Virus record (IMG/VR): IMGVR_UViG_3300024333_000003
Source of the DNA: a virus
Taxonomy: Duplodnaviria > Heunggongvirae > Uroviricota > Caudoviricetes
DNA length: 64,000 nucleotides
Direction: 5' to 3' (one strand)
Part shown: positions 7,602-53,700 of the stretch, piece by piece
Layout: every line of letters starts with the position of its first letter
How positions within the stretch are numbered: the first letter of the stretch is position 1
The notes under the pieces: generated by a model
Told to the model about the DNA's origin: nothing
The model's database searches: none
Seen by the model: only the letters and a program-made list of their open reading frames with translations
Made by a program: the position numbers and the translations under genes

Positions 7602-8221
7602 TTGATGAATGTAAATATAAGTGGTGAATTAACCATAACCGATTACACAGAAGACGAGGCACACCAGATAAAAGCGAGCCTTGTGACCGAAAATCCAACC
7701 TGGGTAACGGCTATGAGTATGAACAAAAGTCTGTGGGGGATCGAACCAAAGCTTCGATTTTACACAGAAGCAAACAATACAATAACCGCCCCCGTTGGTT
7801 TCCTTTCGTCATTGAAGATAATAAATCCTAATTTACAGATTGATGATAATCGCTATTATAGCAAAACTCCTATACAAATAGAATTTACCGGGGAGTTACG
7901 AGATTATCAAAAAACTGCAGTAGATGTATTAAGTAATACAACAAACGGGGTTTTATGCTCTATCACGGCTTCAGGAAAAACCGTTATAGCCTGTGCGTTA
8001 CTTGCAAAACTAAAACAACCTACATTGATACTGGTAGATACTATAGAACTTGCGCATCAATTTATTGCGCGATTAAAACAGTTCACCTCAGTAAAGAATA
8101 TAGGAAAAATCGGCGCGGGCGAAAGAAAAATAAAACCAATAACTGTAGGGCTATTACAAAGCGTAAAAAAAATTGATCAATCAGAATTAAATAAATTCGG
8201 AATGATAATATGCGATGAGGT
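7602..8221 (+). CDS. SF2 DEAD/DEAH-box helicase, exon 1 (ends inside motif II DEV|H)
   Basis: Walker A-like TASGKTVIACAL and motif II ...IICDEV. The ORF as tracked runs on into intron sequence (…LTRSTYYV*). Confidence 0.6.
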
Positions 8222-9227
8222 ATTGACAAGGTCCACATATTACGTATAATAACTTATGAAAAATAAAATTAAGATATTATATAAAAGTGGGTTGTCGGCT
8301 TATCAAATAATGCAAAAACTACACATTGCTTCAAAAGAATTAGTATACAATGTTATACATGAAGAAAAATTAACTAGGGACTACGAAGAATGCAGACACC
8401 CTGGTTTGAATAGTCGTTATTTTAAAAATATAGATACAGAAGAAAAAGCGTATATACTTGGATTAATATTCGCCGACGGTTGTGTTAGAAAAAATCGCCC
8501 AGGCATGACCTTAGCACTACATCCGAATGATCTGTACATGTTGCGACGGATTAAAGATATTTTAGGAACCAAGGCAAAGATTCAAATATCAAAACAACCT
8601 TTAGCGGTGTATTATATAAATAATAAACAAATGAGATTAGACGTCATAGCTAAAGGGTGCTTGCCACAAAAATCTCTACGAGGTGGAAAACCCAAAAATA
8701 TTCCTATAAAATACACACATCATTTTATTAGGGGTATATTTGATGGTGATGGTTCGATATATATAAGAAAAGTTCCTCATCTTAGATACTGTTTTGACAT
8801 ATCTGGCAATATCGATGTTGTTTCTTGGTGCCATAAAAGATTAAAACTTTATACTAAGATAACAAAACACCGCTCAATATTTAGATTAGAGACGACTAAT
8901 TTAATTGAAGTTGTTAGAATATTTAATTATTTATATAAAGACAGTACAATTTTTCTAAAGAGAAAAAAAGCATTATTTGAAAAAGCTTGTGCCGCACTTG
9001 ATCGTAAGATCAAAGGTGTAAATCAAGGAAAAACGGTAAAAACCCGTGATGGGCAATACCGTGCTAAACGCAAGGATAGCAAACAGGCCCTGCGCAGTGT
9101 AGAGCATAGGAATTGAATAAATATAATATTCCCAAGAGTCCTTGACATCCTTATAGGATGAAAATATATGCCGAGCTACAAAGTAATTTGTAGAAATTGA
9201 GATAACAACCTCAATGATAACAAAATG
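8222..9227 (+). mobile_element. putative self-splicing (group I-type) intron carrying a LAGLIDADG homing endonuclease
   Basis: Joining gt(8220-8221)+a(9228) restores codon GTA, giving ...ICDEV|HIVPAKTYAEVISKIPAKYKYGLSATPER (motifs II and III). 5' exon ends in U, intron ends in G (9227). An in-frame TGA sits immediately before exon 2. Confidence 0.55.
8256..9116 (+). CDS. LAGLIDADG homing endonuclease (intron-encoded)
   Basis: Two LAGLIDADG motifs: ILGLIFADGCV and IRGIFDGDGSI. Confidence 0.8.
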   Translation: MKNKIKILYKSGLSAYQIMQKLHIASKELVYNVIHEEKLTRDYEECRHPGLNSRYFKNIDTEEKAYILGLIFADGCVRKNRPGMTLALHPNDLYMLRRIKDILGTKAKIQISKQPLAVYYINNKQMRLDVIAKGCLPQKSLRGGKPKNIPIKYTHHFIRGIFDGDGSIYIRKVPHLRYCFDISGNIDVVSWCHKRLKLYTKITKHRSIFRLETTNLIEVVRIFNYLYKDSTIFLKRKKALFEKACAALDRKIKGVNQGKTVKTRDGQYRAKRKDSKQALRSVEHRN

Positions 9228-9924
9228 ACACATCGTACCAGCAAAAACATACGCTGAAGTTATTTCAAAGATACCAGCAAAATATAAATATGGATTATCA
9301 GCCACACCAGAACGAGCTGATGGTCTTACTAAAGTAATATTCTGGTTAACCGGCCCATTGGTACATCAGGTTCCAGATGCCGCTGTTGCAGATAGAATTG
9401 TAAAACCTGTATATGAGTATATAAAAACTTCATATACGTATCCATTATTTGATACGTCAGAATATGGTATCATGATAACGGATATGGGTACTAATGACAT
9501 AAGAAATAAATTAATAGTTGACACCGTAAATAAATATAAAACACAACAATGTGTTCTATTGTGTCATAGACAAGAACATGCTCAGAGACTGGGTGCGTTA
9601 CTACCGGACTCCGTAGTTTTATTATCCAGTGTAAAGAAAAAAGATCGCGCCGCTATTATGCAGCAACTTGAAAGCGGTAAAAAGCGTATTGTTGTTACTA
9701 CCTGGCAATTGTTTCATAAAGGCATCGATCTGAAGGAGCTTGAGATCTTATTTATATGCGCACCAACACGAAGTAAAGTGTGGTTAAAACAAAGCGCCGG
9801 CAGACTAATGCGAGTTTCAAATAAGATAAAAAAGAATCCAGTCATTATTGATTTTGCGGATGTAAATATAGATTTACTAAAATTCCAATGGTATGCAAGA
9901 AAGAGAGTATTTACACAACTATGA
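9228..9924 (+). CDS. SF2 helicase, exon 2 (motif III LSATPER plus helicase C-terminal domain)
   Basis: Frame open from 9229 with no stops. Contains GLSATPER and C-terminal helicase motifs (VVTTWQLFHKGIDL, QSAGRLMR). Confidence 0.6.
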
Positions 9925-11780: not shown

Positions 11781-12848
11781 ATGGATAACAACTTAATCTT
11801 TGCTATTGAAAAACTAGGGGCCACGATCTACTTATTTGGTGAATGTGTTTGGGCAACAGCATTAAAAATAAAAGTGCAGTATTATAAGTTAGCTATAATT
11901 GGAGTAACCCGCGAACAGGTAATTCCATTGTTAGATAACTATACATTGCACAGAACAAAACCAACACTGCAGATAAGTGACGGTGACACAACATATGAAT
12001 TGTATTTTTTGAATAGTATAGATAGTGTACCATTTGATCCTATATCGATAAACAATGCTATTCTCAGTCTGGATGGCAAGGTATTTCGCGCCGATGATTT
12101 AAAGAATAAACTCATTCGTGCCAATACCTCCACATTTCTCGATTACCCCGAAGAGTTATTACGGATATGTCGCATTGCTGCGCAAACCTCTTTTGCCGTA
12201 GATGTCCCAACGTGGGTAACAATGTACGAACATTCACGATTGATCAAGAATGTAGTAAAGAGCAACCCAGCATATATTGGAAAACAATTGCAACAAATAA
12301 TTATGTCAAAAAATCCGGGGCATGGTTTTCGTTTGATGTTAGAGACCAACGTACTACAATATATTTTTCCAGAGTTAGCACGTTGTAACAATATTCGTCA
12401 AACACGTCGGGGCGAAGGCATCAATGTATTTGAACACATATTGTTGGCTATAAATGCGGCAGCACTTGAAGAAGAAATCAGATGGACTATGTTATTTCAT
12501 GATATGGCAAAACCAACTACTATGGATATTACTTCCGATGGTAAAATGCATTTTTTCAAACACGAATTTGTAGGCGCCGAGCTCGCTGTAACATACATGA
12601 CAAAATATAAATTACCGCCGTCTCTAATACAAACTGTAAAGATATTAATAGAGAATCATATGTTTGACGCGGACCCGAAGTTAACCGTAAAGGGCGTGCG
12701 TCGTCTAATTAAAAGAGTCGGCAAAGAAAACATATATCAACTTATAAAAGTGCGAGAAGCGGATAGACGTGGTACCATGGTTCCACCGTCAAATGATAAG
12801 ATAGAATTGTTAAAAACCAAAATCGAAAAAGAATTATCAAATGTTTAA
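11781..12848 (+). CDS. CCA-adding-enzyme-like protein with degenerate nucleotidyltransferase head and HD domain
   Basis: FLDYPEELLRICRIAAQTSF resembles the EDPLR(I/M)LRA(I/A)RF motif. HD motif MLFHDMAKP. The GGxVRD...DxD head motif is replaced by GECVWATAL. Confidence 0.5.
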   Translation: MDNNLIFAIEKLGATIYLFGECVWATALKIKVQYYKLAIIGVTREQVIPLLDNYTLHRTKPTLQISDGDTTYELYFLNSIDSVPFDPISINNAILSLDGKVFRADDLKNKLIRANTSTFLDYPEELLRICRIAAQTSFAVDVPTWVTMYEHSRLIKNVVKSNPAYIGKQLQQIIMSKNPGHGFRLMLETNVLQYIFPELARCNNIRQTRRGEGINVFEHILLAINAAALEEEIRWTMLFHDMAKPTTMDITSDGKMHFFKHEFVGAELAVTYMTKYKLPPSLIQTVKILIENHMFDADPKLTVKGVRRLIKRVGKENIYQLIKVREADRRGTMVPPSNDKIELLKTKIEKELSNV

Positions 12849-24715: not shown

Positions 24716-24789
24716 GGAGACATAGCTCAGTCGGTAGAGCTCTAGGCTGAAGACCTGGGTATGCACTGGTTCGATTCCGGTTGTCTCCA
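24716..24789 (+). tRNA. tRNA-Phe (GAA)
   Basis: GGAGACA/UGUCUCC acceptor, D-arm GCUCAGUCGGUAGAGC, anticodon loop CUGAAGA. Confidence 0.85.
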
Positions 24790-24961: not shown

Positions 24962-25101
24962 CTAGCGGGTCGATAGATGTTAGTTATCGGTTAAAGCATA
25001 TATCTCAAAAATATAACACTCTAGGTTCAAGTCCTAGCGCGTATGAAAATACGTAGTAGCTAAATTAAAAACACTGACGTCGCTTAAATTACCCGCGATA
25101 T

Positions 25102-28294: not shown

Positions 28295-28903
28295 ATGAAA
28301 CAATATCCAGAAATTCCTAAAGATGTGCCATCTTTTAATGCACACGTGTTCGATAAAATAGATGGTAGTAACTTACGTTTTGAATACAGCAAAAAACGTG
28401 GTTGGTTTAAATTCGGTACGCGCACAAGATTATTTGACCAATCAGATGACGTATTTGGATCAGCAGTTCCTTTATTTCACGAAACGTTGTTATTCCCGCT
28501 TACCCAAATTATGATTGATAACCGATTTGAACATGCGGTAGTGTTTGCAGAATTTGCTGGGAAAAGAAGTTTTGCTGGACAACATGAAAAAGATGATGTG
28601 AAGACACTGACGGTGTTTGATGTGGCCTTAGATAAAAAAGGATTCGTATCTCCTAAGATGTTCATAAAATTATTTGACGGTAAAGTACTGATACCAAAAT
28701 ATCTTGGATATTATCGCTGGAATAAAGAATTTACCACTAAGATCTATTATAATGAAATAGAAGGAATCACTTTTGAAGGAGTCGTCGGCAAAGATGGGGA
28801 GGGGACGCACTACAATATGGCAAAAGCTAAGACATTGCAGTGGTTAAATAAAGTACATGCTTTATATTCAGATAATCTAGCAGATAAGATAATAAATAGT
28901 TAA
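28295..28903 (+). CDS. RNA-ligase-like nucleotidyltransferase (KxDGxN motif I)
   Basis: DKIDGSN (motif I), EGVVGK (motif IV), KAK (motif V). Confidence 0.55.
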   Translation: MKQYPEIPKDVPSFNAHVFDKIDGSNLRFEYSKKRGWFKFGTRTRLFDQSDDVFGSAVPLFHETLLFPLTQIMIDNRFEHAVVFAEFAGKRSFAGQHEKDDVKTLTVFDVALDKKGFVSPKMFIKLFDGKVLIPKYLGYYRWNKEFTTKIYYNEIEGITFEGVVGKDGEGTHYNMAKAKTLQWLNKVHALYSDNLADKIINS

Positions 28904-29463
28904 TGGAACAACTAATCTGCGGTAAAAACCATAAGAAGATCGGGGTAACTCCTTCGATCGTACTAATTAATCCTAAATATCCAAGAAACGTTGGCGCAAT
29001 AATACGTGCTGCATCTTGTTTTGGTATAGCCCAGGTTTGGTACACCGGCAATCGTGTATCAATGACACCAACAAAAGATTATCGTTTACCAAGAGAAGAA
29101 CGGATGAAGGGTTATAAAGAAGTTACACTCACACAATTTGATTATCCGTTTGATATGTTTGAAAAAGCAATTCCTATTGCAATTGAAGTGCGAGAAAACT
29201 CTGAAAACTTATTAGACTTTGAACATCCATATAATGCAGTGTATGTTTTTGGTCCAGAAGATGGTGGTATTGAACGAGTACATATGCAACACTGCCATCG
29301 AATTGTCACTATACCCACGAAACATTGCACAAACTTGGCAGCGGCTGTTTATCTTACTTTATATGATAGATATGCCAAACGAGTACGTGCAGGAAAAGAT
29401 CAAATATTCAATATAGGAAAAAATGAACAACGAGGTTATGAAGAAGGGGCTGAATTTGGATGA
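28903..29463 (+). CDS. SpoU/TrmH-family RNA 2'-O-methyltransferase
   Basis: NVGAIIRAASCFG and YVFGPEDGGI SPOUT motifs. Confidence 0.7.
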   Translation: MEQLICGKNHKKIGVTPSIVLINPKYPRNVGAIIRAASCFGIAQVWYTGNRVSMTPTKDYRLPREERMKGYKEVTLTQFDYPFDMFEKAIPIAIEVRENSENLLDFEHPYNAVYVFGPEDGGIERVHMQHCHRIVTIPTKHCTNLAAAVYLTLYDRYAKRVRAGKDQIFNIGKNEQRGYEEGAEFG

Positions 29464-29945
29464 TACCAAAAGAAATTGAATATAAATTTTTGTTCTTTGA
29501 TGAGAATGTTGTGCTTCCACAGCTGGCTCAAGCTAGTAAATCAATAAAATTAATGCAGGGTTATACAATAGATGGGATTAGGTTTACTCAACGAGTACAT
29601 GAAGATAATACAAAAGATTATAAAATAAATTATAAATTAGGAATGGGTGTAGTTCGGGACGAAGCACAATGTCAAATAGATGAAAATGTGTTTATTGCAA
29701 TTTGGCCCTTAACAATTGGTCGACGTGTTTACAAAACACGTTATCACTTTCCACTGGAATCTGGTCTTATATTAGAATTAGATGTATATCAACATTCGAG
29801 GAAATGGCCATTGATCACTGGAGAAATAGAGTTTGCTACGGAAGAGGAAGCAGATAATTACTCAGACACTGAATTGGGGCGCTTCGGCAGTTTTTTATAT
29901 GTAACTGGCGACTCTGAGTATCTGAATATAAACTTAGCCTGTTAA
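29460..29945 (+). CDS. CYTH-domain (triphosphate tunnel) protein
   Basis: N-terminal EIEYKF (EIERKF-type) signature. Confidence 0.45.
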   Translation: MIPKEIEYKFLFFDENVVLPQLAQASKSIKLMQGYTIDGIRFTQRVHEDNTKDYKINYKLGMGVVRDEAQCQIDENVFIAIWPLTIGRRVYKTRYHFPLESGLILELDVYQHSRKWPLITGEIEFATEEEADNYSDTELGRFGSFLYVTGDSEYLNINLAC

Positions 29946-29953
29946 TAAATTAT

Positions 29954-30027
29954 GCTCTCGTACATCAATTGGACAGAGCTGCGCCTTCTAAGCGTGAGCG
30001 TTGCGAGTTCGAGTCTCGCCGAGAGTA
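29954..30027 (+). tRNA. tRNA-Arg (UCU), irregular D-arm
   Basis: Anticodon arm UGCGC-CUUCUAA-GCGUG, T-arm GCGAG-UUCGAGU-CUCGC. Confidence 0.55.
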
Positions 30028-30070
30028 CAAGATGCCCCTTAGCGTATTTTCATTCATAAGGAGAAAATAT

Positions 30071-30523
30071 ATGCTACCTATTTTAAAAAGAGACTTTGCC
30101 TCTGATATAGAATATTGGCTTAATGATATTAGAAAAGCCTTTGAGGAGGCAGCAAATTTGGAACTATGTTTTGAACCTATTGGTCGAGCATTTCCAAAAG
30201 TAAACATTTCCGAAACAGACAAGGAATTTGTCATAGAAGCGGCTTTGCCTGGTTATGGAAAAGATCAAATTAAATTAGAAGTTACAAATGATAAAGGAAG
30301 AAAGTTTCTTACTGTAAAAGGTGAGAAATCTGGGAAGGCTTCTAAGAAAGATACACGTTATCTTGCTCAAGAAGTACATTTTTCCTCGTTTCATCGTTCC
30401 TGGGCGCTTCCAGCCGATGTAGATGTAGATGCCATCAAAACTAATATGGATAGTGGAGTTCTTACTATCGAACTTCCAAAAACAAGTCCAAGCATCGACA
30501 AAAAAGAAATAACTATTAGCTAA
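30071..30523 (+). CDS. Hsp20/alpha-crystallin small heat-shock protein
   Basis: Alpha-crystallin domain FVIEAALPGYGKDQIKLEV...GVLTIELPK. Start ATG 30071 preceded by AAGGAG; the track ORF start overlaps the tRNA. Confidence 0.7.
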   Translation: MLPILKRDFASDIEYWLNDIRKAFEEAANLELCFEPIGRAFPKVNISETDKEFVIEAALPGYGKDQIKLEVTNDKGRKFLTVKGEKSGKASKKDTRYLAQEVHFSSFHRSWALPADVDVDAIKTNMDSGVLTIELPKTSPSIDKKEITIS

Positions 30524-30546
30524 CTACGCTCAAGGGGCATCACTTT

Positions 30547-31158
30547 ATGACAATACATATAATTGGTGATATACATGGATTATACACAGAAATATATTTG
30601 CCTATGATCAAGAAGATTGATGGACCTTCAATTCAATTAGGCGATATGGCCCATGGATTCCCAAATACATTTTTACCTGAGTTGCCGTCTCAACATAAAT
30701 TTATCCGCGGTAATCATGATAATCCAGAACTATGTAAAACACATCCTAATTATCTTGGAGAATTTGGATATATCGAAGAATGGGATATATTCTATCTAGG
30801 GGGTGGTTGGTCGACAGATTGGGACAGTAGAATTCCTGGTGTATCTTGGTGGTATGATGAGGAACTGTCAATGCGACAATGTTATGAAGCCTTAAAATTA
30901 TACGAGGTGTCAAAACCACGAATAGTGCTTTCACATGATTGTCCGGAAATAGCAAAGATAAGTATGCTGATATATTTATACGGAAAACATGCGTATAATC
31001 AACCTTCCAGAACAAATCAATTATTGCAAGCCATGTTTGAACTTCATAATCCATCTTATTGGTGTTTCGGTCATTTCCATCATACACGAAAATTTATAAT
31101 TCACAAAACTGCCTTTCAGTGTTTAGGAAAGGCACAATACACAACAATAGAGGTTTAA
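30547..31158 (+). CDS. calcineurin-like metallophosphoesterase
   Basis: GDIHG, GD...GNHD motifs. Confidence 0.65.
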   Translation: MTIHIIGDIHGLYTEIYLPMIKKIDGPSIQLGDMAHGFPNTFLPELPSQHKFIRGNHDNPELCKTHPNYLGEFGYIEEWDIFYLGGGWSTDWDSRIPGVSWWYDEELSMRQCYEALKLYEVSKPRIVLSHDCPEIAKISMLIYLYGKHAYNQPSRTNQLLQAMFELHNPSYWCFGHFHHTRKFIIHKTAFQCLGKAQYTTIEV

Positions 31159-31160
31159 CA

Positions 31161-31877
31161 ATGCACGAACTAGTAAAAAAGGCACGAAGCTTTGCAGAGA
31201 AACGACATGCAGGACATAAATATGGTACATTGCCAGTGGATATTATAGTACATCTTGATAACGTTTATCATGTTTTAATGGAATTTGGCGAAACCGACCC
31301 ATCGATGTTAGCGGCAGGATTCTTACATGATATATTAGAAGACACAAAAACTTCGCAAGAGGAACTGCAAGAAGAATTTGGTATGATAACTACTGCATTG
31401 GTTTTAGCGGTTACTGATGGAGAAGGTAAGAATCGTAAGGAACGCAAAGAAGCAATGTACAATAAAACGGCGGGTCATTTGCGATTCACACGTTTAAAAT
31501 TAGCTGACCGTATAGCAAACATGCGGTATTCCAAGGCTGAAAAGTCTCCGCAGCTGACAATGTATATGAAGGAGTATCCAGAATTTAAAGCTCGCTTATT
31601 CTTTGCGAACGATGGTAACGAAAAAATGTGGGAAACATTAGACGCTTTAATGAAAAGTGTGATTCCACGGACATTCAAATTGAGTCGTGAAAAAGATGTT
31701 AGCGGTGTTTCTGGAAAAGGTATAGTAGGAGAAGGAGTTATATTTACAAACGGTAAATGCGTAGTAACATGGTATGGAAAAATAGCATCAGTCACTGTTT
31801 ATAACACATTCGAGGATTGTGAGCAAATACATGGACACGAAGGAGCAACAAAATTTGTATTCGATAACAAGTTTTAA
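31161..31877 (+). CDS. Rel/SpoT-type HD hydrolase (small alarmone hydrolase-like)
   Basis: RHAGHKYGTLP...HLDNV...AAGFLHDILEDT matches the (p)ppGpp-hydrolase HD domain. Confidence 0.6.
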   Translation: MHELVKKARSFAEKRHAGHKYGTLPVDIIVHLDNVYHVLMEFGETDPSMLAAGFLHDILEDTKTSQEELQEEFGMITTALVLAVTDGEGKNRKERKEAMYNKTAGHLRFTRLKLADRIANMRYSKAEKSPQLTMYMKEYPEFKARLFFANDGNEKMWETLDALMKSVIPRTFKLSREKDVSGVSGKGIVGEGVIFTNGKCVVTWYGKIASVTVYNTFEDCEQIHGHEGATKFVFDNKF

Positions 31878-38035: not shown

Positions 38036-38062
38036 ATTTTACGAGCCGAAGTATATCGTTAT

Positions 38063-38105
38063 CAAAGAACTGTGTGTCGTAGGTCCGAATCCTACTCTCT
38101 CCACC
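38063..38105 (+). pseudogene. tRNA 3' half (anticodon-stem 3' strand, T-arm, acceptor 3' strand and discriminator)
   Basis: ACUGU-GUGUC-GUAGG-UCCGAAU-CCUAC-UCUCUCC-A-CC. Acceptor and anticodon-stem strands are complementary to the 5' half at 38206-38237. Confidence 0.5.
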
Positions 38106-38205
38106 CTGAAAGATAGTTGGTCCCTTTTGTTGAATGATTAAATTCATTTTATGGTATAGGACATGACAATATAAAAGAAGCCTCCTATAACTATCTTTCT
38201 GGTTG

Positions 38206-38237
38206 GGAGAGATAGCTCAGTCGGTAGAGCAACAGTA
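38206..38237 (+). pseudogene. tRNA 5' half (acceptor 5' strand, D-arm, anticodon-stem 5' strand) located downstream of its cognate 3' half
   Basis: GGAGAGA-UA-GCUC-AGUCGGUA-GAGC-A-ACAGU, then no T-arm follows. Pairs with 38063-38105. Confidence 0.5.
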
Positions 38238-38375
38238 TAAAGATGGTATATGACCATTTGCTCGTAATTTAATTTTATTATGGCTCATTCTCTAAGGTAA
38301 GCTGTAACGAGCACGCTTCAGCCATAGATAGCTATCTATGTTAAATCAAAGCACGCATATGGAATGAGTTATTTC

Positions 38376-38447
38376 AGGGCGTTCGGTTAATTGGTAAACC
38401 AACGGTCTCCAAAACCGTGACTACGGGTTCAAGTCCTGTACGCCCTG
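38376..38447 (+). tRNA. tRNA-Trp (CCA)
   Basis: Anticodon arm ACGGU-CUCCAAA-ACCGU; acceptor AGGGCGU/ACGCCCU. Confidence 0.75.
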
Positions 38448-38611
38448 CTATGAAATATCACTTATATGAAGAAAAAACTGTGTGTTGTGGAACAACAGTC
38501 ATACGGAAATTAAGTGCCAACATTTGTTGTAATTGTCGTAAAATTTTAACTCTTTCAGATACTTATATTACTTTAGCAGTACGTAAATTCACATTAACAA
38601 AAAGAAAAGAT

Positions 38612-47641: not shown

Positions 47642-48355
47642 ATGGCACAACAAATGATCAGAATATTTCAAGTTGGTGGTAGTGTTAGAGATTTAATATT
47701 ACGCGTTAAGTCAAAAGATATTGATTATGCAGTAGTAGCAGTTTCTTGGGAAGAAATGAGAAATTATATTCTTGCCAAAGGCAAAATATATCTCGAGACC
47801 CCAGAATACTTCACTATCCGTGCTCATATAGATGGTTTTGGTGATGCTGATTTTGTGTTATGTCGAAAGGATGGTAACTATTCAGACGGTCGTAGACCTG
47901 ATACTGTTGAGTTGGGCACATTGTATGACGATCTAGCCAGACGTGATTTCACAATGAATGCTATTGCGATCGACATGCAAGATCCAAAGCGTCCTTTTAT
48001 TGACCCGCATGGTGGGTTGATTGACATACAAAATAATCTCATTAAATGTGTTGGTAAGCCCGAAGATCGCTTCAATGAAGATGCTTTACGCATGCTACGC
48101 GCGTTAAGATTTGCCGTAACCAAAAAAATGCAGATCGACTTATCAGTAGAAGCATGTTTTGGTAATCGTGAGTTATTAAACAAATTGAATAATCGTATTT
48201 CTTGGGAACGTAAAAAAGACGAATTGTTTAAAATGTTCAAAACAAGTACAACACGAACTTTTGAATTGTTTGATCGATACCCATCAATGCGCGACGTATT
48301 ACTTTCTGATGACAAACCTTTGTGGCTTGAACCAACTTTACGAGCACGCCCATGA
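47642..48355 (+). CDS. tRNA nucleotidyltransferase (CCA-adding enzyme head domain)
   Basis: GGSVRD...DID nucleotidyltransferase motif, RRDFTMNA, EDALRMLRALRF. Confidence 0.7.
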   Translation: MAQQMIRIFQVGGSVRDLILRVKSKDIDYAVVAVSWEEMRNYILAKGKIYLETPEYFTIRAHIDGFGDADFVLCRKDGNYSDGRRPDTVELGTLYDDLARRDFTMNAIAIDMQDPKRPFIDPHGGLIDIQNNLIKCVGKPEDRFNEDALRMLRALRFAVTKKMQIDLSVEACFGNRELLNKLNNRISWERKKDELFKMFKTSTTRTFELFDRYPSMRDVLLSDDKPLWLEPTLRARP

Positions 48356-48918
48356 AACTAGGAATATTTGGTGGCAGTTTTGATCCGCCGCACGCTGGAC
48401 ATTTATGGTTGTGTAGAAGTGCTCAGGAATTATATCATTTGGATAGTATAGCTATGGTGCCTAATGCGCTTTCTCCATTAAAGGATCATAAACATACAGA
48501 AGCTCATCATATAGTCGCTATGACACGATTAACGGCGTTCGAATGCGAAAGTACTTATTGTGATACAACAGAGATTTGCCGTGATAAGGTATCATATACT
48601 ATAGACACTGTAAAATTATTTAAAGATCATTATCCAGAAGATGATTTATATTTGCTGTTAGGTGGTGATTCATTATTAGATTTTTACCGTTGGAAGGACC
48701 CTAATGAACTTGTAGAGATTATCGGGCACGAACATATTTTAGTGGCTGAACGAAGTACTGCACCTCTGATGGCACATAAGTTTCGGTCGCTACCTATGCC
48801 CTACATACAAGTGAGTTCAACGGATATTCGTAATCGAATAAAAAATCATTTGACAATAAAAGGATTAGTAGTTGATTCGGTGCGTGAATATATAATCGAA
48901 CGTAAGCTGTATCTATAA
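48352..48918 (+). CDS. nicotinate/nicotinamide mononucleotide adenylyltransferase (NMNAT/NadD-like)
   Basis: GGSFDPPHAGH (T/HxGH) motif. Confidence 0.75.
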   Translation: MKLGIFGGSFDPPHAGHLWLCRSAQELYHLDSIAMVPNALSPLKDHKHTEAHHIVAMTRLTAFECESTYCDTTEICRDKVSYTIDTVKLFKDHYPEDDLYLLLGGDSLLDFYRWKDPNELVEIIGHEHILVAERSTAPLMAHKFRSLPMPYIQVSSTDIRNRIKNHLTIKGLVVDSVREYIIERKLYL

Positions 48919-51641: not shown

Positions 51642-51784
51642 AATATACTAAAAGATAAGGGAATAGTCAAGTCTAAAATGAAAATTTTAGAGTTACTGCC
51701 CCGCGAGTCCACCAAGGAGGTTTCTTTTCGTAGTACGTTATACTTCCTCCGTTCAAAATAAATAAAGGAAAACGTACCAAGACT

Positions 51785-51857
51785 GCGGGGTACGTTGGAA
51801 ATGGTCCCCACGAGAGTCTCATAAGCTCTGCATGCAGGTTCAAGTCCTGTCCCCGCT
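51785..51857 (+). tRNA. tRNA-Met (CAU)
   Basis: Anticodon arm AGAGU-CUCAUAA-GCUCU; acceptor GCGGGG/CCCCGC. Confidence 0.65.
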
Positions 51858-52565
51858 ACAAATCGGCCGGATCGAGATTGTTATCATAGATTCGACTTCT
51901 ATTTCTCCCGCCAAGAAAAAATTTGGGAGAAAGCGCAATGGACGCACTCAGTCTCACAACATTGCCGATCTATTTTTAAGGAAAATAAATGACTGCGTTA
52001 TTCGTTATTTTCACTATAATTGTTTCAGTGCTTATTGATCTGGCTGTTCAAGCACATCGTAAACATAAATCATTAAAAACAAAGCCAGAGATTTATTTAC
52101 ATGATCCAACACTCACTATGTGTGATGGCGGACAATTAAAGGAACAAGATATGAAATAGGGCTATATCAATACCTCGTAAACTCACCAGTTTATAATATT
52201 AATAACCGCGACAATAAGTCGCTATATATTTTTACTAAAACTGGAGTTTACAATGACAAAAGAACAATACAATCAACTAAAATCCGAGCTTAAAATCTTA
52301 GCTCAATTTCTTCATTACGACAACTATAATTCACGTGCCTACCAATCACAAAATGCCGGTGGCAAAAAGAAACCAAAAGAAATACCAGAACAATTAGAAA
52401 AGCAATTTAAGGAATTAAATATAAGTCCTTGGAGAGCTCACTATGAGTATAGACATAAACACATATTTATGTCTTTACAACGTGGTAAAAAACGTGAACA
52501 AATCGAAAGACCAAGACAAGGTAACGAACCCGATGAAAATTACATCAAAAAACTTGTGGAGCAGT

Positions 52566-52949: not shown

Positions 52950-53700
52950 TGCCCATTAACCTTATTGGTTAGCTATGAACAATCATAGTACTGTTCGCCA
53001 GAACTGCATTCCAGAATGATTTAGGTTAATTGCGAAAGCCCCTGGAACAGGGGAGTCCTACGCATACTTACCCGTCGTAGGTGAGCCTGTCTAATTATGG
53101 GTTAGACCCAGGGTCGATCCAAAAGGTAAGCTCGATCGAAATTAACTATTGTCTGCGTGGCCGAGAACGAAATAAGCACTAGTCTCTAAAACTAGTTACA
53201 CGGGGTCGTTCCCCGTCGCAGACACTTATTCCTCTGTGGTGAAATGAAAAGAGATGTATATTTGTTACGTATTAATATACATTACTAAGTCACTAGATTG
53301 AATTAGTAGGTGACAGCATCGAGTTACCAGTATAGACTGTTCTTTATGGTCAAGTTCAGAGCAAGTGTATTGGAAGAATAACTAGGATGAAGCGATTAAA
53401 CCAATTGTCATGCGACGAACGTTTAGTTGCGTAGCGGCTGAATATTCAATTGAAAATTAGAATGGGATCTTTACTACTCCCTGTCGAACGCTTACAAACG
53501 GAACTGACTGTCAGTAGACTAAAAGTAATGCTGCAGGTTTGAGTCCTGCCAGAGGGATAAATTTTTATCCGGACGGCGTATTATTCTCTCGACGCCTAAT
53601 AAATATGGGGAGATTATCAGTCCTGTCATAAACAATTCCGCTCAATGAGCACCGGAGCCATTTGATAGGACTTTTGCATTATATATGGCTCCGCCACGAT
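52950..53700 (+). ncRNA. group I intron-like ribozyme core in an ORF-free region
   Basis: P4-P6-like UUAAUUGCGAAAGCCCCUGGAACAGGGGAGUCCUACGCAUAC (~53024-53065). R-like CAGUAGACUAAAAG (~53515-53528) and S-like AUUAUCAGUCC (~53609-53619) can form P7. Confidence 0.45.

What the first reader, a model, noticed from the sequence alone, without database searches (positions are those of the whole stretch)
38058..38240. Permuted or split tRNA: the 3' half lies about 100 nt upstream of its own 5' half
Positions 38063-38105 encode an anticodon-stem 3' strand, variable loop, T-arm (GUAGG-UCCGAAU-CCUAC), acceptor 3' strand UCUCUCC and discriminator. Positions 38206-38237 encode the matching acceptor 5' strand GGAGAGA, a canonical D-arm and anticodon-stem 5' strand ACAGU. 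Both the 7-bp acceptor and the 5-bp anticodon stem are complementary between the two pieces. The motif AAAGA is duplicated at both anticodon-loop breakpoints. The spacer carries an 11-bp inverted repeat (GAAAGATAGTT 38108-38118 / AACTATCTTTC 38189-38199) that would bring the halves together. It could be a circularly permuted tRNA gene, a trans-assembled split tRNA, or a decoy for an anticodon nuclease. I do not know of a described case in phages.
Basis: seen in the sequence. Interest (0 to 1): 0.8.

Follow-up and report, generated by a model that had tools for sequence, protein, structure and literature searches.

The report
Phage Y-RNA-like permuted tRNA mimic
The "back-to-front tRNA" is real and conserved, but it is most likely a phage copy of a known class of small RNAs (YrlA-type Y RNAs) that imitate a tRNA with its acceptor end closed, not a broken or split tRNA gene.

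Summary
At 38039-38267 (+ strand) a T-arm and acceptor 3' strand lie upstream of the matching acceptor 5' strand and D-arm. The same sequence occurs in four independent assemblies.

The split/permuted tRNA-gene reading is not the best fit. Related large phages carry the same element at the same place, between the NAPRT gene and tRNA-Trp. There the "spacer" is only a 3-18 nt hairpin loop, and the "anticodon stem" continues into two further conserved helices formed by leader and trailer.

Covariation supports all six helices: 95.6% of cells pair, and 25 of 36 pairs show compensatory changes. [quoted passage not shown]

- Rfam YrlA matches a relative at 36 bits. It scores a genuine Ro-linked mycobacteriophage YrlA at 32.5 bits.
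- A model built only from this family finds the Y-RNA cluster upstream of Ro60 in phage Bxz1.
- The window's leader carries the YrlA motifs GCCGAAG and UUAU.

A second copy lies at 51861-51970. No Ro60 gene is visible in about 80 kb of this phage, so Ro binding is unproven. The 7-bp acceptor stem followed by A-CC suggests RNase P nicking and CCA addition.

Verdict: a divergent new member of a known kind.

The parts
38039..38267 (+). Whole element (copy W-A): a YrlA-like permuted tRNA mimic, from the outer-helix 5' strand to the outer-helix 3' strand.
   Evidence: Same position and architecture in relatives.
38039..38046 (+). Outer helix P1, 5' strand (UUACGAGC). Pairs with 38260-38267 (GCUCGUAA).
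   Evidence: MFE fold. 6 of 7 P1 pairs show compensatory changes across the family, and 100% of cells pair.
38045..38051 (+). GCCGAAG, which matches the YrlA 5' motif GNCGAA(N0-1)G proposed as the Ro60/Rsr contact.
   Evidence: Sequence. Motif definition in PMC4201824. G.CG is invariant across this family and the Ro-linked Bxz1 Y RNAs.
38051..38058 (+). Second helix P2, 5' strand (GUAUAUCG). Pairs with 38244-38251 (UGGUAUAU).
   Evidence: 96% of cells pair, and position 15/103 covaries C-G <-> U-A. The single-sequence MFE of the window copy prefers a local hairpin here instead.
38059..38068 (+). Internal-loop strand UUAUCAAAGA. It contains UUAU (the YrlA 'YUAY' motif) and the first AAAGA.
   Evidence: GUU..C is invariant in alignment A4. 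YUAY is described in PMC4201824 and is the kink nucleotides in 10.1101/312249.
38069..38078 (+). Anticodon-stem-like 3' strand ACUGU (pairs with 38232-38236) followed by the variable loop GUGUC.
   Evidence: C48 can form the Levitt pair with G15.
38079..38095 (+). T-arm GUAGG-UCCGAAU-CCUAC, with C55 instead of U55.
   Evidence: (4 of 5 pairs compensatory).
38096..38102 (+). Acceptor-like stem, 3' strand UCUCUCC. Pairs with 38206-38212.
   Evidence: All 7 acceptor pairs show compensatory changes across the family.
38103..38205 (+). 103-nt insertion in the acceptor loop. It starts A73-CCC and extends the acceptor stem into a rod through CC/GG and the 11-bp inverted repeat 38108-38118 / 38189-38199.
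   Evidence: fold; exact repeat. It corresponds to loops of 3-18 nt in relatives. It is not repeated elsewhere. It is identical in 4 assemblies.
38206..38231 (+). Acceptor 5' strand GGAGAGA, U8 A9, D-arm GCUC-AGUCGGUA-GAGC, A26.
   Evidence: 24 of 25 nt are identical to the phage's own tRNA-Phe(GAA) at 24716.
38232..38243 (+). Anticodon-stem-like 5' strand ACAGU plus internal-loop strand AUAAAGA (the second AAAGA).
38244..38267 (+). Trailer: P2 3' strand UGGUAUAU, linker GACCAUUU, P1 3' strand GCUCGUAA.
   Evidence: The UUU before P1 is invariant.
38277..38370 (+). Hairpin domain closed by CUCAUUC/GAAUGAG. It occupies the slot of the second ('B') copy in relatives. It has no tRNA-like core and its status is uncertain.
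   Evidence: z = -1.4, not significant. Model R1 gives only 4.6 bits.
38376..38448 (+). tRNA-Trp(CCA), the conserved downstream neighbour and probably co-transcribed.
   Evidence: The element ends 6-8 nt before tRNA-Trp in L001/L007, L005, L009 and L010.
51861..51970 (+). Second, reduced copy (W2).
- P1 AUCGGC/GCCGAU, then CG
- P2 GAGAUUG/CAGUCUC, then UUAUC
- T-arm AUAGA-UUCGACU-UCUAU
- acceptor UUCUCCC/GGGAGAA followed by G-CCA
- a D-like hairpin
- no anticodon-like stem
   Evidence: Model R1 gives 31.2 bits, E 9e-06 over the whole window with filters off. The unconstrained fold recovers the layout, z = -2.4. Rfam YrlA does not hit it.

Best explanation
The locus encodes a small structured RNA of the YrlA (Y RNA-like A) type: a tRNA mimic whose strand order is circularly permuted relative to a tRNA.

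**Shown computationally**
- The RNA reads 5'->3': outer helix, GNCGAAG, second helix, UUAU/A-rich internal loop, 5-bp anticodon-like stem, variable loop, T-arm, acceptor-like hairpin, U8A9, D-arm, then the return strands of the three helices.
- T and D loops keep the tRNA elbow contacts.
- In the window's copy the acceptor hairpin has 7 bp, is followed by A73-CC, and carries a 103-nt rod-like insertion. Relatives have a short loop at that place.

**Inferred**
- It is transcribed with the tRNA array, downstream of the NAPRT gene and upstream of tRNA-Trp. It is freed by the tRNA-processing enzymes.
- Because of the 7-bp stem and the ACC tail, RNase P probably nicks before G38206. The 3' side is then trimmed and completed to CCA, and the phage encodes CCA-adding-type enzymes. 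This is what happens to the M. smegmatis YrlA. The result would be a two-piece RNA held together by the acceptor stem, the anticodon-like stem and the two outer helices.
- The leader/trailer module most likely binds a Ro60/Rsr protein, either host-encoded or phage-encoded outside the sequence seen. The tRNA-like module would present a tRNA shape to a tRNA-binding partner, in RNA surveillance or repair during infection.

It is not a gene for a decoding tRNA.
For: **1. Conserved permuted order in relatives.** Five other phage genomes carry it, and their NAPRT is 62-67% identical: L001/L007, L006/L008, L005, L009, L010.

**2. Covariation.** 95.6% of cells pair, against 31-44% when partners are slid. 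25 of 36 pairs are compensatory, and 0 of 500 shuffles reach this. RNAalifold predicts the same six helices unaided.

**3. The acceptor 'spacer' is a terminal loop.** It is 3-18 nt in relatives.

**4. tRNA tertiary positions are conserved**.

**5. Rfam YrlA RF02553.**
- It matches L009 at 36.1 bits, E 9e-07, in the order T-arm, closed acceptor, D-arm.
- It aligns globally to L005 at 19 bits and shows the same helix order.
- The genuine Ro-adjacent Bxz1 YrlA scores only 32.5 bits.

**6. Reciprocal test.** Model R1 was built only from this family, without the window copy.
- It found a new member in L005 at 66.5 bits.
- Its two best hits in 50 kb of Bxz1 fall in the Y-RNA cluster directly upstream of gp220.
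- gp220 is TROVE + vWA_Ro60.

**7. Shared 5' module.** Window GCCGAAG..AUCGUUAUCAAAG compares with Bxz1 GGCCGAAGG..GUCGGUUAUCAAC. The invariant positions are G.CG...GUU..C.

**8. Published description.** It matches on permuted order, variable acceptor length, and 7-bp stems being cut by RNase P and CCA-tailed (PMC4201824; 10.1101/312249).

**9. RNA-repair context in the window**:
- RNA ligase family, 28295-28903
- phosphoesterase, 30547-31158
- nucleotidyltransferases, 11781-12848 and 47642-48355
- SpoU methylase, 28903-29463
Against: - No TROVE/Ro60 gene lies within 4 kb, in the 64-kb window, in about 13 kb beyond its ends, or next to the element in any relative. Published YrlAs were defined partly by adjacency to rsr.
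- No copy reaches Rfam's gathering score of 69. The window's own two copies get no YrlA hit.
- Model R1 gives the main window copy only 17 bits, because of the 103-nt insertion. Its membership therefore rests on synteny, 83/120 identity to L001-A and compensatory changes.
- The GNCGAA 'AA' is present only in the window copy. Relatives have GNCGNN(N)G.
- The covariation alignment was segmented by hand with the structure in mind.
- There are only 7-8 distinct sequences, all from one phage clade.
- Expression, processing and protein partner are all unobserved.
Confidence: 0.72

Rival explanations
1. Ro-independent tRNA mimic. The fold is the same, but the RNA acts without Ro60. It could be a decoy or sponge for host tRNA-targeting nucleases or other tRNA-binding proteins. 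It could instead be a processing or stability element of the tRNA-Trp precursor.
For: - No Ro60 gene was found anywhere in the sequence available.
- The element sits inside tRNA arrays and ends 6-8 nt before tRNA-Trp in four genomes.
- The window copy mimics the phage's own tRNA-Phe acceptor and D-arm, 24 of 25 nt.
- There are two copies per genome.
Against: - The leader/trailer module is conserved and resembles the 5' module of Ro-linked Bxz1 Y RNAs. That module would have no obvious purpose in a pure tRNA decoy.
- In L006/L008 an ORF separates the element from tRNA-Trp, and W2 is not next to tRNA-Trp. A dedicated tRNA-Trp leader is therefore unlikely.
- The resemblance to tRNA-Phe is absent in L009 and L010.
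Confidence: 0.18
2. Genuine circularly permuted or split tRNA gene. The two pieces are joined in the anticodon loop, for example by the phage RNA ligase. The spacer is then removed by RNase P and 3' processing, yielding a decoding tRNA with loop AUAAAGA and anticodon AAA (Phe).
For: - The in-silico joined sequence is called a tRNA by ARAGORN.
- It has a 7-bp acceptor stem, A73-CC and a Phe-like body.
- An RNA-ligase-family gene, a phosphoesterase and CCA-adding-type enzymes are present in the window.
Against: - Relatives have closed acceptor hairpins with 3-8 nt loops and no CCA, for example L009 and L001-B.
- There is no conserved anticodon loop. The stem continues into covarying helices P2 and P1.
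- In L001-A the anticodon-like stem is not even maintained, with 2 of 5 pairs.
- It has C55 instead of U55.
- No bulge-helix-bulge motif is seen on inspection.
- An A34 (AAA) anticodon is unusual in bacteria, on my own knowledge.
- The phage already has tRNA-Phe(GAA).
Confidence: 0.04
3. Inert remnant of a tandem tRNA duplication or local rearrangement (a pseudogene pair), or an assembly artefact.
For: - Tandem duplication followed by loss of the outer halves is the accepted origin of permuted tRNA genes, on my own knowledge.
- The 5' half resembles the phage's tRNA-Phe.
Against: - The sequence is identical in 4 independent assemblies.
- The architecture is retained across genomes that have diverged to 62-67% protein identity, with compensatory changes in every helix. 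The comparison with L001-A alone shows 7 such changes.
Confidence: 0.03

Closest known systems
[quoted passage not shown] 2014, PMC4201824; Wang et al. 2018, bioRxiv 10.1101/312249)
   Same: - Same module order: 5'/3' ends paired in a long interrupted stem with GNCGAA(N)G near the 5' end and YUAY, then V, T stem-loop, closed acceptor-like stem-loop, D stem-loop.
- tRNA tertiary contacts are kept.
- Acceptor-stem length is variable.
- 7-bp versions are RNase P substrates that receive CCA (M. smegmatis).
- The class occurs in phages.
- Some Y RNAs are co-transcribed with tRNAs (D. radiodurans Yrn2-tRNA-Asp-Yrn1).
   Different: - No Ro60/rsr gene within 4 kb or anywhere in the sequence seen.
- All copies score below Rfam's gathering threshold.
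- The element is embedded in the tRNA array of a roughly 215-kb phage.
- Two to three copies per genome.
- C55 in the T-loop of the window copy.
- A 103-nt insertion in the acceptor loop.
- The 'AA' of GNCGAA is not conserved in relatives.
Circularly permuted tRNA genes of Cyanidioschyzon merolae and some other algae/archaea (Soma et al. 2007; my own knowledge)
   Same: The 3' half lies upstream of the 5' half on one strand. An intervening sequence links the acceptor 3' end to the acceptor 5' end. Leader and trailer pair with each other.
   Different: - Those genes have a bulge-helix-bulge motif that is cut by the tRNA splicing endonuclease and ligated into a circle. RNase P and tRNase Z then release a normal decoding tRNA.
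- Here there is no such motif and no restorable conserved anticodon loop.
- Relatives here have acceptor loops too short to be processed, and no CCA.
Split tRNA genes of Nanoarchaeum equitans (Randau et al. 2005; my own knowledge)
   Same: tRNA halves that find each other through complementary flanking sequences.
   Different: Those halves are separate genes with their own promoters and are joined by splicing. Here both halves lie on one conserved about 130-230 nt unit. No plus-strand promoter-like site lies between them.
Two-piece tmRNA from circularly permuted ssrA genes (alpha-proteobacteria, cyanobacteria; my own knowledge)
   Same: Permuted gene order with the acceptor/T-arm 3' piece upstream. 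Excision of an intervening segment leaves a two-piece, CCA-ended tRNA-like molecule.
   Different: tmRNA has no D stem, carries a tag reading frame and pseudoknots, and is charged with alanine through G3:U70. Here there is a full D-arm, no tag ORF, and A3-U70. ARAGORN finds no tmRNA.

Membership tests
YrlA-type Y RNA | tRNA-like domain in the order (V)-T stem-loop - closed acceptor-like stem-loop - D stem-loop | tested here: met
   Sequence and fold. Family covariation. Rfam YrlA aligns L009 in exactly this order.
YrlA-type Y RNA | Nucleotides for tRNA tertiary contacts: U8, A14, R15:Y48, G18G19, T54/A58, G53:C61, U55 | tested here: met
   All are present in the window copy except U55, which is C.
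YrlA-type Y RNA | 5' and 3' ends pair to form a long interrupted stem (the Ro-binding module) | tested here: met
   P1 is 100% paired with 6 of 7 pairs compensatory, and P2 is 96% paired. P1 is recovered by the MFE fold of the window copy.
YrlA-type Y RNA | GNCGAA(N0-1)G motif near the 5' end and a conserved YUAY | tested here: met
   The window has GCCGAAG at 38045-38051 and UUAU at 38059-38062. Relatives keep only G.CG..G.
YrlA-type Y RNA | Encoded within about 4 kb of a Ro60/Rsr (TROVE) gene on the same strand | tested here: not met
   No TROVE in the window ORFs scanned or in the flanks. None is next to the element in the relatives' precomputed Pfam calls. tblastn with Bxz1 Ro60 finds nothing in 259 kb. 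The remaining roughly 140 kb of the genome could not be read.
YrlA-type Y RNA | Reaches the Rfam RF02553 gathering score (69 bits) | tested here: not met
   Window copies: no hit. L009 36.1 bits and L005 19.3 bits. The bona fide Ro-adjacent Bxz1 YrlA also fails, at 32.5 bits, so this criterion is weak for phage copies.
YrlA-type Y RNA | Bound by Ro60/Rsr; modified by TruB/DusA | not testable with these tools
   Needs immunoprecipitation and modification mapping.
Circularly permuted tRNA gene (C. merolae type) | 3' half upstream of its own 5' half on the same strand, with complementary acceptor strands | tested here: met
Circularly permuted tRNA gene (C. merolae type) | Leader/trailer form a bulge-helix-bulge motif whose cleavage and ligation restore a 7-nt anticodon loop | tested here: not met
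   By inspection, the stem is followed by an asymmetric 7x10-nt internal loop and then helices P2 and P1. The loop is not conserved as an anticodon loop in relatives.
Circularly permuted tRNA gene (C. merolae type) | Intervening sequence removable to give a free 5' end and a CCA 3' end in all members | tested here: not met
   This is possible for the window copies and L001-A, which have 7 bp plus N73-CC(A). L009, L001-B and L005 have 5-7 nt loops without CCA.
Circularly permuted tRNA gene (C. merolae type) | tRNA splicing endonuclease available | not tested
   Only the larger ORFs were scanned. None is known in bacteria, on my own knowledge.
Canonical tRNA gene | Detected by ARAGORN or the Rfam tRNA model as a contiguous cloverleaf | tested here: not met

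The most novel reading that the evidence does not exclude
This would be a Ro-independent branch of the Y-RNA family, recruited into the tRNA arrays of large phages. In the copies with a 7-bp acceptor stem and encoded N73-CC(A), namely both window copies and L001-A, RNase P and the phage CCA-adding enzyme would produce a two-piece, CCA-ended tRNA mimic. That mimic would then either be aminoacylated or act as bait for host tRNA-targeting defence nucleases. It would work together with the phage's own RNA ligase, phosphoesterase and nucleotidyltransferase repair set.
Probability: 0.12. Interest if true: 0.7.

Novelty: new member of a known kind. Interest (0 to 1): 0.4.

Why it matters
This corrects an attractive but probably wrong reading, a permuted tRNA gene in a phage. 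It also extends the YrlA/Y-RNA family to a clade of roughly 100-215 kb environmental phages. There the RNA sits in tRNA arrays, is present in two or three copies, and is not next to a Ro60 gene.

That separation raises two possibilities: either Y RNAs can work with a host Ro60, or the tRNA-like module has a Ro-independent role. The function of that module is still unknown even in bacteria.

On the practical side, the curated Rfam model misses these copies, and it also misses the genuine Bxz1 YrlA at its threshold. Phage Y RNAs are therefore probably under-annotated. tRNA finders can be misled by their halves.

Tried and rejected
1. **Natural permuted intron-exon (group I) arrangement.** The 'R/S-like' GUAGACUAACGG...GGAGUCC in L001 turned out to be the D-arm of a second tandem copy. 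No omega-G or U splice-site logic fits.

2. **Motif scans to enlarge the family.**
 - ACGAGCC..GTATATCGTTATC in IMG/VR returned only the known contig.
 - GTATATCGTTATC..GTCCGAATC in metagenomes gave two chance hits in coding DNA.
 - GGCCGNNGTACATTGTTC and GTATATCGTTATC..CGAATC in IMG/VR gave only chance hits.
 - Megablast of the locus against GenBank phages found no match.

3. **Direct MAFFT alignment of the natural sequences.** It misaligned the core, so I used hand segmentation with linkers trimmed.

4. **The insertion as a mobile or repeated element, or GAAAGATAGTT as a recurring signal.** The motif is not enriched: 4 matches against 2.0 expected.

5. **The neighbouring PcfJ-like and vWA genes as a split Ro60.** Neither has sequence similarity to Ro60 or to any solved structure. 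Pfam gives generic VWA only. I did not pursue this by structure prediction.

6. **The domain 38277-38370 as a second copy.** It is not supported.

7. **Look-up of the window's NAPRT product (P0001).** Nothing was on record, so I used the downstream gene instead.

8. **Promoter/terminator scan.** No plus-strand signal lies between the halves. The scan uses sigma-70 rules, which may not apply to this host.

Full report
**Observation.**
The window is a tRNA-rich stretch of a large phage, with 37 tRNAs, all on the + strand.
- First comes ACTGT, GTGTC, the T-arm GTAGG-TCCGAAT-CCTAC, the acceptor 3' strand TCTCTCC, and A-CCC.
- Then come 103 nt that contain an exact 11-bp inverted repeat.
- Then come GGAGAGA, TA, a canonical D-arm, A, and ACAGT.

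ARAGORN and Rfam do not call a tRNA here. Joining the pieces in silico yields a sequence that ARAGORN accepts as a tRNA at about half of the 520 junctions tried (260). The identical sequence occurs in four assemblies from four samples, with 0 differences in 440 nt. The arrangement is therefore real.

**Relatives.**
No close GenBank phage exists. The NAPRT protein, however, has 62-67% identical homologues on 99-215 kb contigs. Every one of these genomes carries the same kind of element.
- In L001/L007, L009 and L010 it lies between NAPRT and tRNA-Trp.
- In L005 it follows an inserted glycosyl-hydrolase gene, but still sits just before a tRNA-Trp-like gene.
- In L006/L008 an ORF follows it.

The decisive point is the 'spacer'. 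In relatives it is a terminal loop of 3-18 nt on a closed acceptor hairpin (L009: CUGGGUCC-UAC-GGGCCCGG). The stem that looked like an anticodon stem runs on, through a conserved internal loop, into two further helices made by the leader and the trailer.

**Structure and covariation.**
I cut the copies into structural segments and trimmed only the unpaired linkers.
- On seven distinct sequences, 95.6% of cells form pairs, against 31-44% when partners are slid.
- 25 of 36 pairs have changes on both sides. That includes all 7 acceptor pairs and 6 of 7 outer-helix pairs.
- No shuffle out of 500 reaches the observed values.

The segmentation was made by hand, which biases these counts. RNAalifold, run on the same alignment with no structure supplied, still returns the same six helices. 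The window copy alone folds into most of them, z = -5.05. Positions needed for the tRNA elbow and core are conserved: U8, A14, G15:C48, G18G19, T54/A58 and G53:C61. The window copy and L001-A share C55 instead of U55.

**Identification.**
This layout is the published one for YrlA RNAs.
- Chen et al. (PMC4201824) describe V, T, acceptor-like and D stem-loops, flanked by a stem formed from the 5' and 3' ends. That stem has GNCGAA(N0-1)G near the 5' end and a conserved YUAY.
- They report candidates near Ro60 genes in 254 bacteria and 22 phages.
- They show that the M. smegmatis YrlA, which has a 7-bp acceptor stem, is cut by RNase P and receives CCA in vivo.
- Wang et al. [quoted passage not shown]

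The Rfam YrlA model gives the following results.
- It matches L009 at 36.1 bits (E 9e-07), in the order T-arm, acceptor, D-arm.
- It aligns end to end, weakly, with L005 and reveals the same helix order.

These scores are below the gathering threshold of 69. The genuine YrlA upstream of the Ro60 gene of mycobacteriophage Bxz1 is also below it, at 32.5 bits with no hit at gathering.

**Reciprocal test.**
I built a covariance model from five relatives, with the window copy excluded.
- It found the L005 member, which was not in the seed set, at 66.5 bits.
- It found a second, reduced copy in the window at 51861-51970: 31.2 bits, E 9e-06 over the whole window.
- In 50 kb of Bxz1, its two best hits fall in the roughly 400 nt directly upstream of Ro60, on the same strand. 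One covers the tRNA-like core and one covers the outer stem module.

The 5' modules are visibly alike. The window has AGCCGAAGUAUAUCGUUAUCAAAG. Bxz1 has GGCCGAAGGCUCGUCGGUUAUCAAC and GGCCGAGAGUUUGUCGGUUACC. The invariant positions are G.CG...GUU..C.

The window's main copy scores only 17 bits with the model, because the 103-nt insertion sits in the acceptor loop. Its membership rests on four points:
- its position
- 83/120 identity to L001-A
- the shared unusual T-loop
- seven compensatory pair changes relative to L001-A with none disruptive in the acceptor stem, T stem or P1

**What is missing.**
No TROVE/Ro60 gene was found in any of the following places:
- among the window's ORFs that were scanned
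- in the flanks reachable beyond the window
- beside the element in any relative
- by tblastn with Bxz1 Ro60 against all 259 kb held

About 140 kb of the genome could not be read. The adjacency criterion for YrlA is therefore not met, and Ro binding remains an inference from the conserved 5' module.

The window does encode an RNA-repair and tRNA-maintenance set: an RNA-ligase-family protein, a calcineurin-like phosphoesterase, two nucleotidyltransferase-type proteins and a SpoU methylase. Relatives carry Thg1-family genes near the element. This fits the repair context in which Ro/Y-RNA modules have been placed in jumbo phages (PMC7824862).

**Mechanism proposed.**
- Shown computationally: the fold, its conservation and its similarity to YrlA.
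- Inferred: co-transcription with the tRNA array, and release by tRNA-processing enzymes.
- Inferred for the three copies with a 7-bp stem and N73-CC(A), which are both window copies and L001-A: RNase P nicking, then CCA completion. W2 and L001-A both read G-CCA exactly. This follows the M. smegmatis precedent.
- Inferred: binding of the outer stem by a Ro60/Rsr protein.

The paired rod that the insertion forms next to the cleavage site could hinder RNase P, so that step is uncertain.

**Rivals.**
- A Ro-independent tRNA mimic (decoy or processing element) is the main alternative (0.18).
- A true permuted or split decoding tRNA is unlikely (0.04). Relatives lack a processable loop and CCA, no anticodon loop is conserved, the stem continues into covarying helices, U55 is replaced, and tRNA-Phe(GAA) is already present.
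- A decayed duplication or an artefact is excluded in practice by the four assemblies and the covariation.

**Verdict.**
The element is a divergent new member of the known YrlA/Y-RNA class of permuted tRNA mimics. It is found in a clade of large environmental phages, and its notable feature is that it is not linked to a Ro60 gene.

Noticed in passing
window 51784-51859 (+): An aberrant tRNA-like sequence lies directly upstream of the second copy (W2). It has acceptor GCGGGG/CCCCGC, T-arm GCAGG-TTCAAGT-CCTGT, and a possible anticodon loop CUCAUAA (CAU). ARAGORN calls it only at a relaxed threshold, and then with a different arm assignment. Rfam does not call it.
   Followed up: partly
window 24973-25045 (+): A tRNA is called by Rfam only (31.1 bits, just above threshold). 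ARAGORN finds it only at a relaxed threshold, as Leu(caa) with mismatches in the acceptor stem. It may be a degenerate tRNA.
   Followed up: partly
window 53151-53225 (+): A tRNA with anticodon CUA, which ARAGORN labels 'Pyl'. It is an amber-suppressor-type tRNA. This may mean the phage reads UAG as a sense codon in some genes.
   Followed up: no
window 38206-38230 vs 24716-24740: The 5' half of the element is 24 of 25 nt identical to the phage's own tRNA-Phe(GAA). The one acceptor difference is compensated on the 3' strand. Relatives' elements do not resemble their own tRNA-Phe. Gene conversion or specific mimicry is possible.
   Followed up: partly
window 28295-31877, 11781-12848, 47642-48918: An RNA-repair and nucleotide toolkit sits inside the tRNA region:
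- RNA_ligase family (28295-28903)
- SpoU methylase (28903-29463)
- calcineurin-like phosphoesterase (30547-31158)
- HD_4 (31059-31877)
- HD + PolyA_pol_RNAbd (11781-12848)
- PolyA_pol head domain (47642-48355)
- cytidylyltransferase-like, possibly an NMN adenylyltransferase partner of the NAPRT (48352-48918)
   Followed up: partly
L006 7230-7985, L008 4937-5692, L009 6171-6914: Thg1-family (3'-5' nucleotidyltransferase) genes sit next to tRNA-Cys, a few hundred bases downstream of the element, in three relatives. The window has no such gene at that place.
   Followed up: no
L001/L007 5384-5679; L006 5396-5812: Relatives carry two tandem copies of the element, 'A' and 'B'. In L006/L008 a roughly 120-nt insert closed by CTCTCGTGG/CTACGAGAG separates them, and an ORF separates copy B from tRNA-Trp.
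   Followed up: partly
L005 7071-7145 (+): A tRNA-Trp-like gene (loop CUCCAAA) lies directly after the L005 element. ARAGORN did not call it.
   Followed up: no
L024 (Mycobacterium phage Bxz1) 29843-30195: Three Y-RNA-like units lie in tandem upstream of Ro60 gp220: two stem-only units and one YrlA. None is annotated in the record and none reaches Rfam's gathering score. Phage Y RNAs therefore seem under-annotated.
   Followed up: partly
L018 14359-16428 (beyond the right end of the window); window 7602-9924 (= L019 4061-6380): Two interrupted genes. A family-A DNA polymerase is called as two adjacent genes. A DEAD/Helicase_C helicase is interrupted by an ORF with a faint LAGLIDADG hit. These could be intein, intron or homing-endonuclease insertions.
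   Followed up: no
window 38277-38370 (+): A hairpin domain closed by CUCAUUC/GAAUGAG lies between the element and tRNA-Trp. It contains a perfect palindrome, CATAGATAGCTATCTATG. It occupies the slot of the 'B' copy in relatives but has no tRNA-like core.
   Followed up: partly
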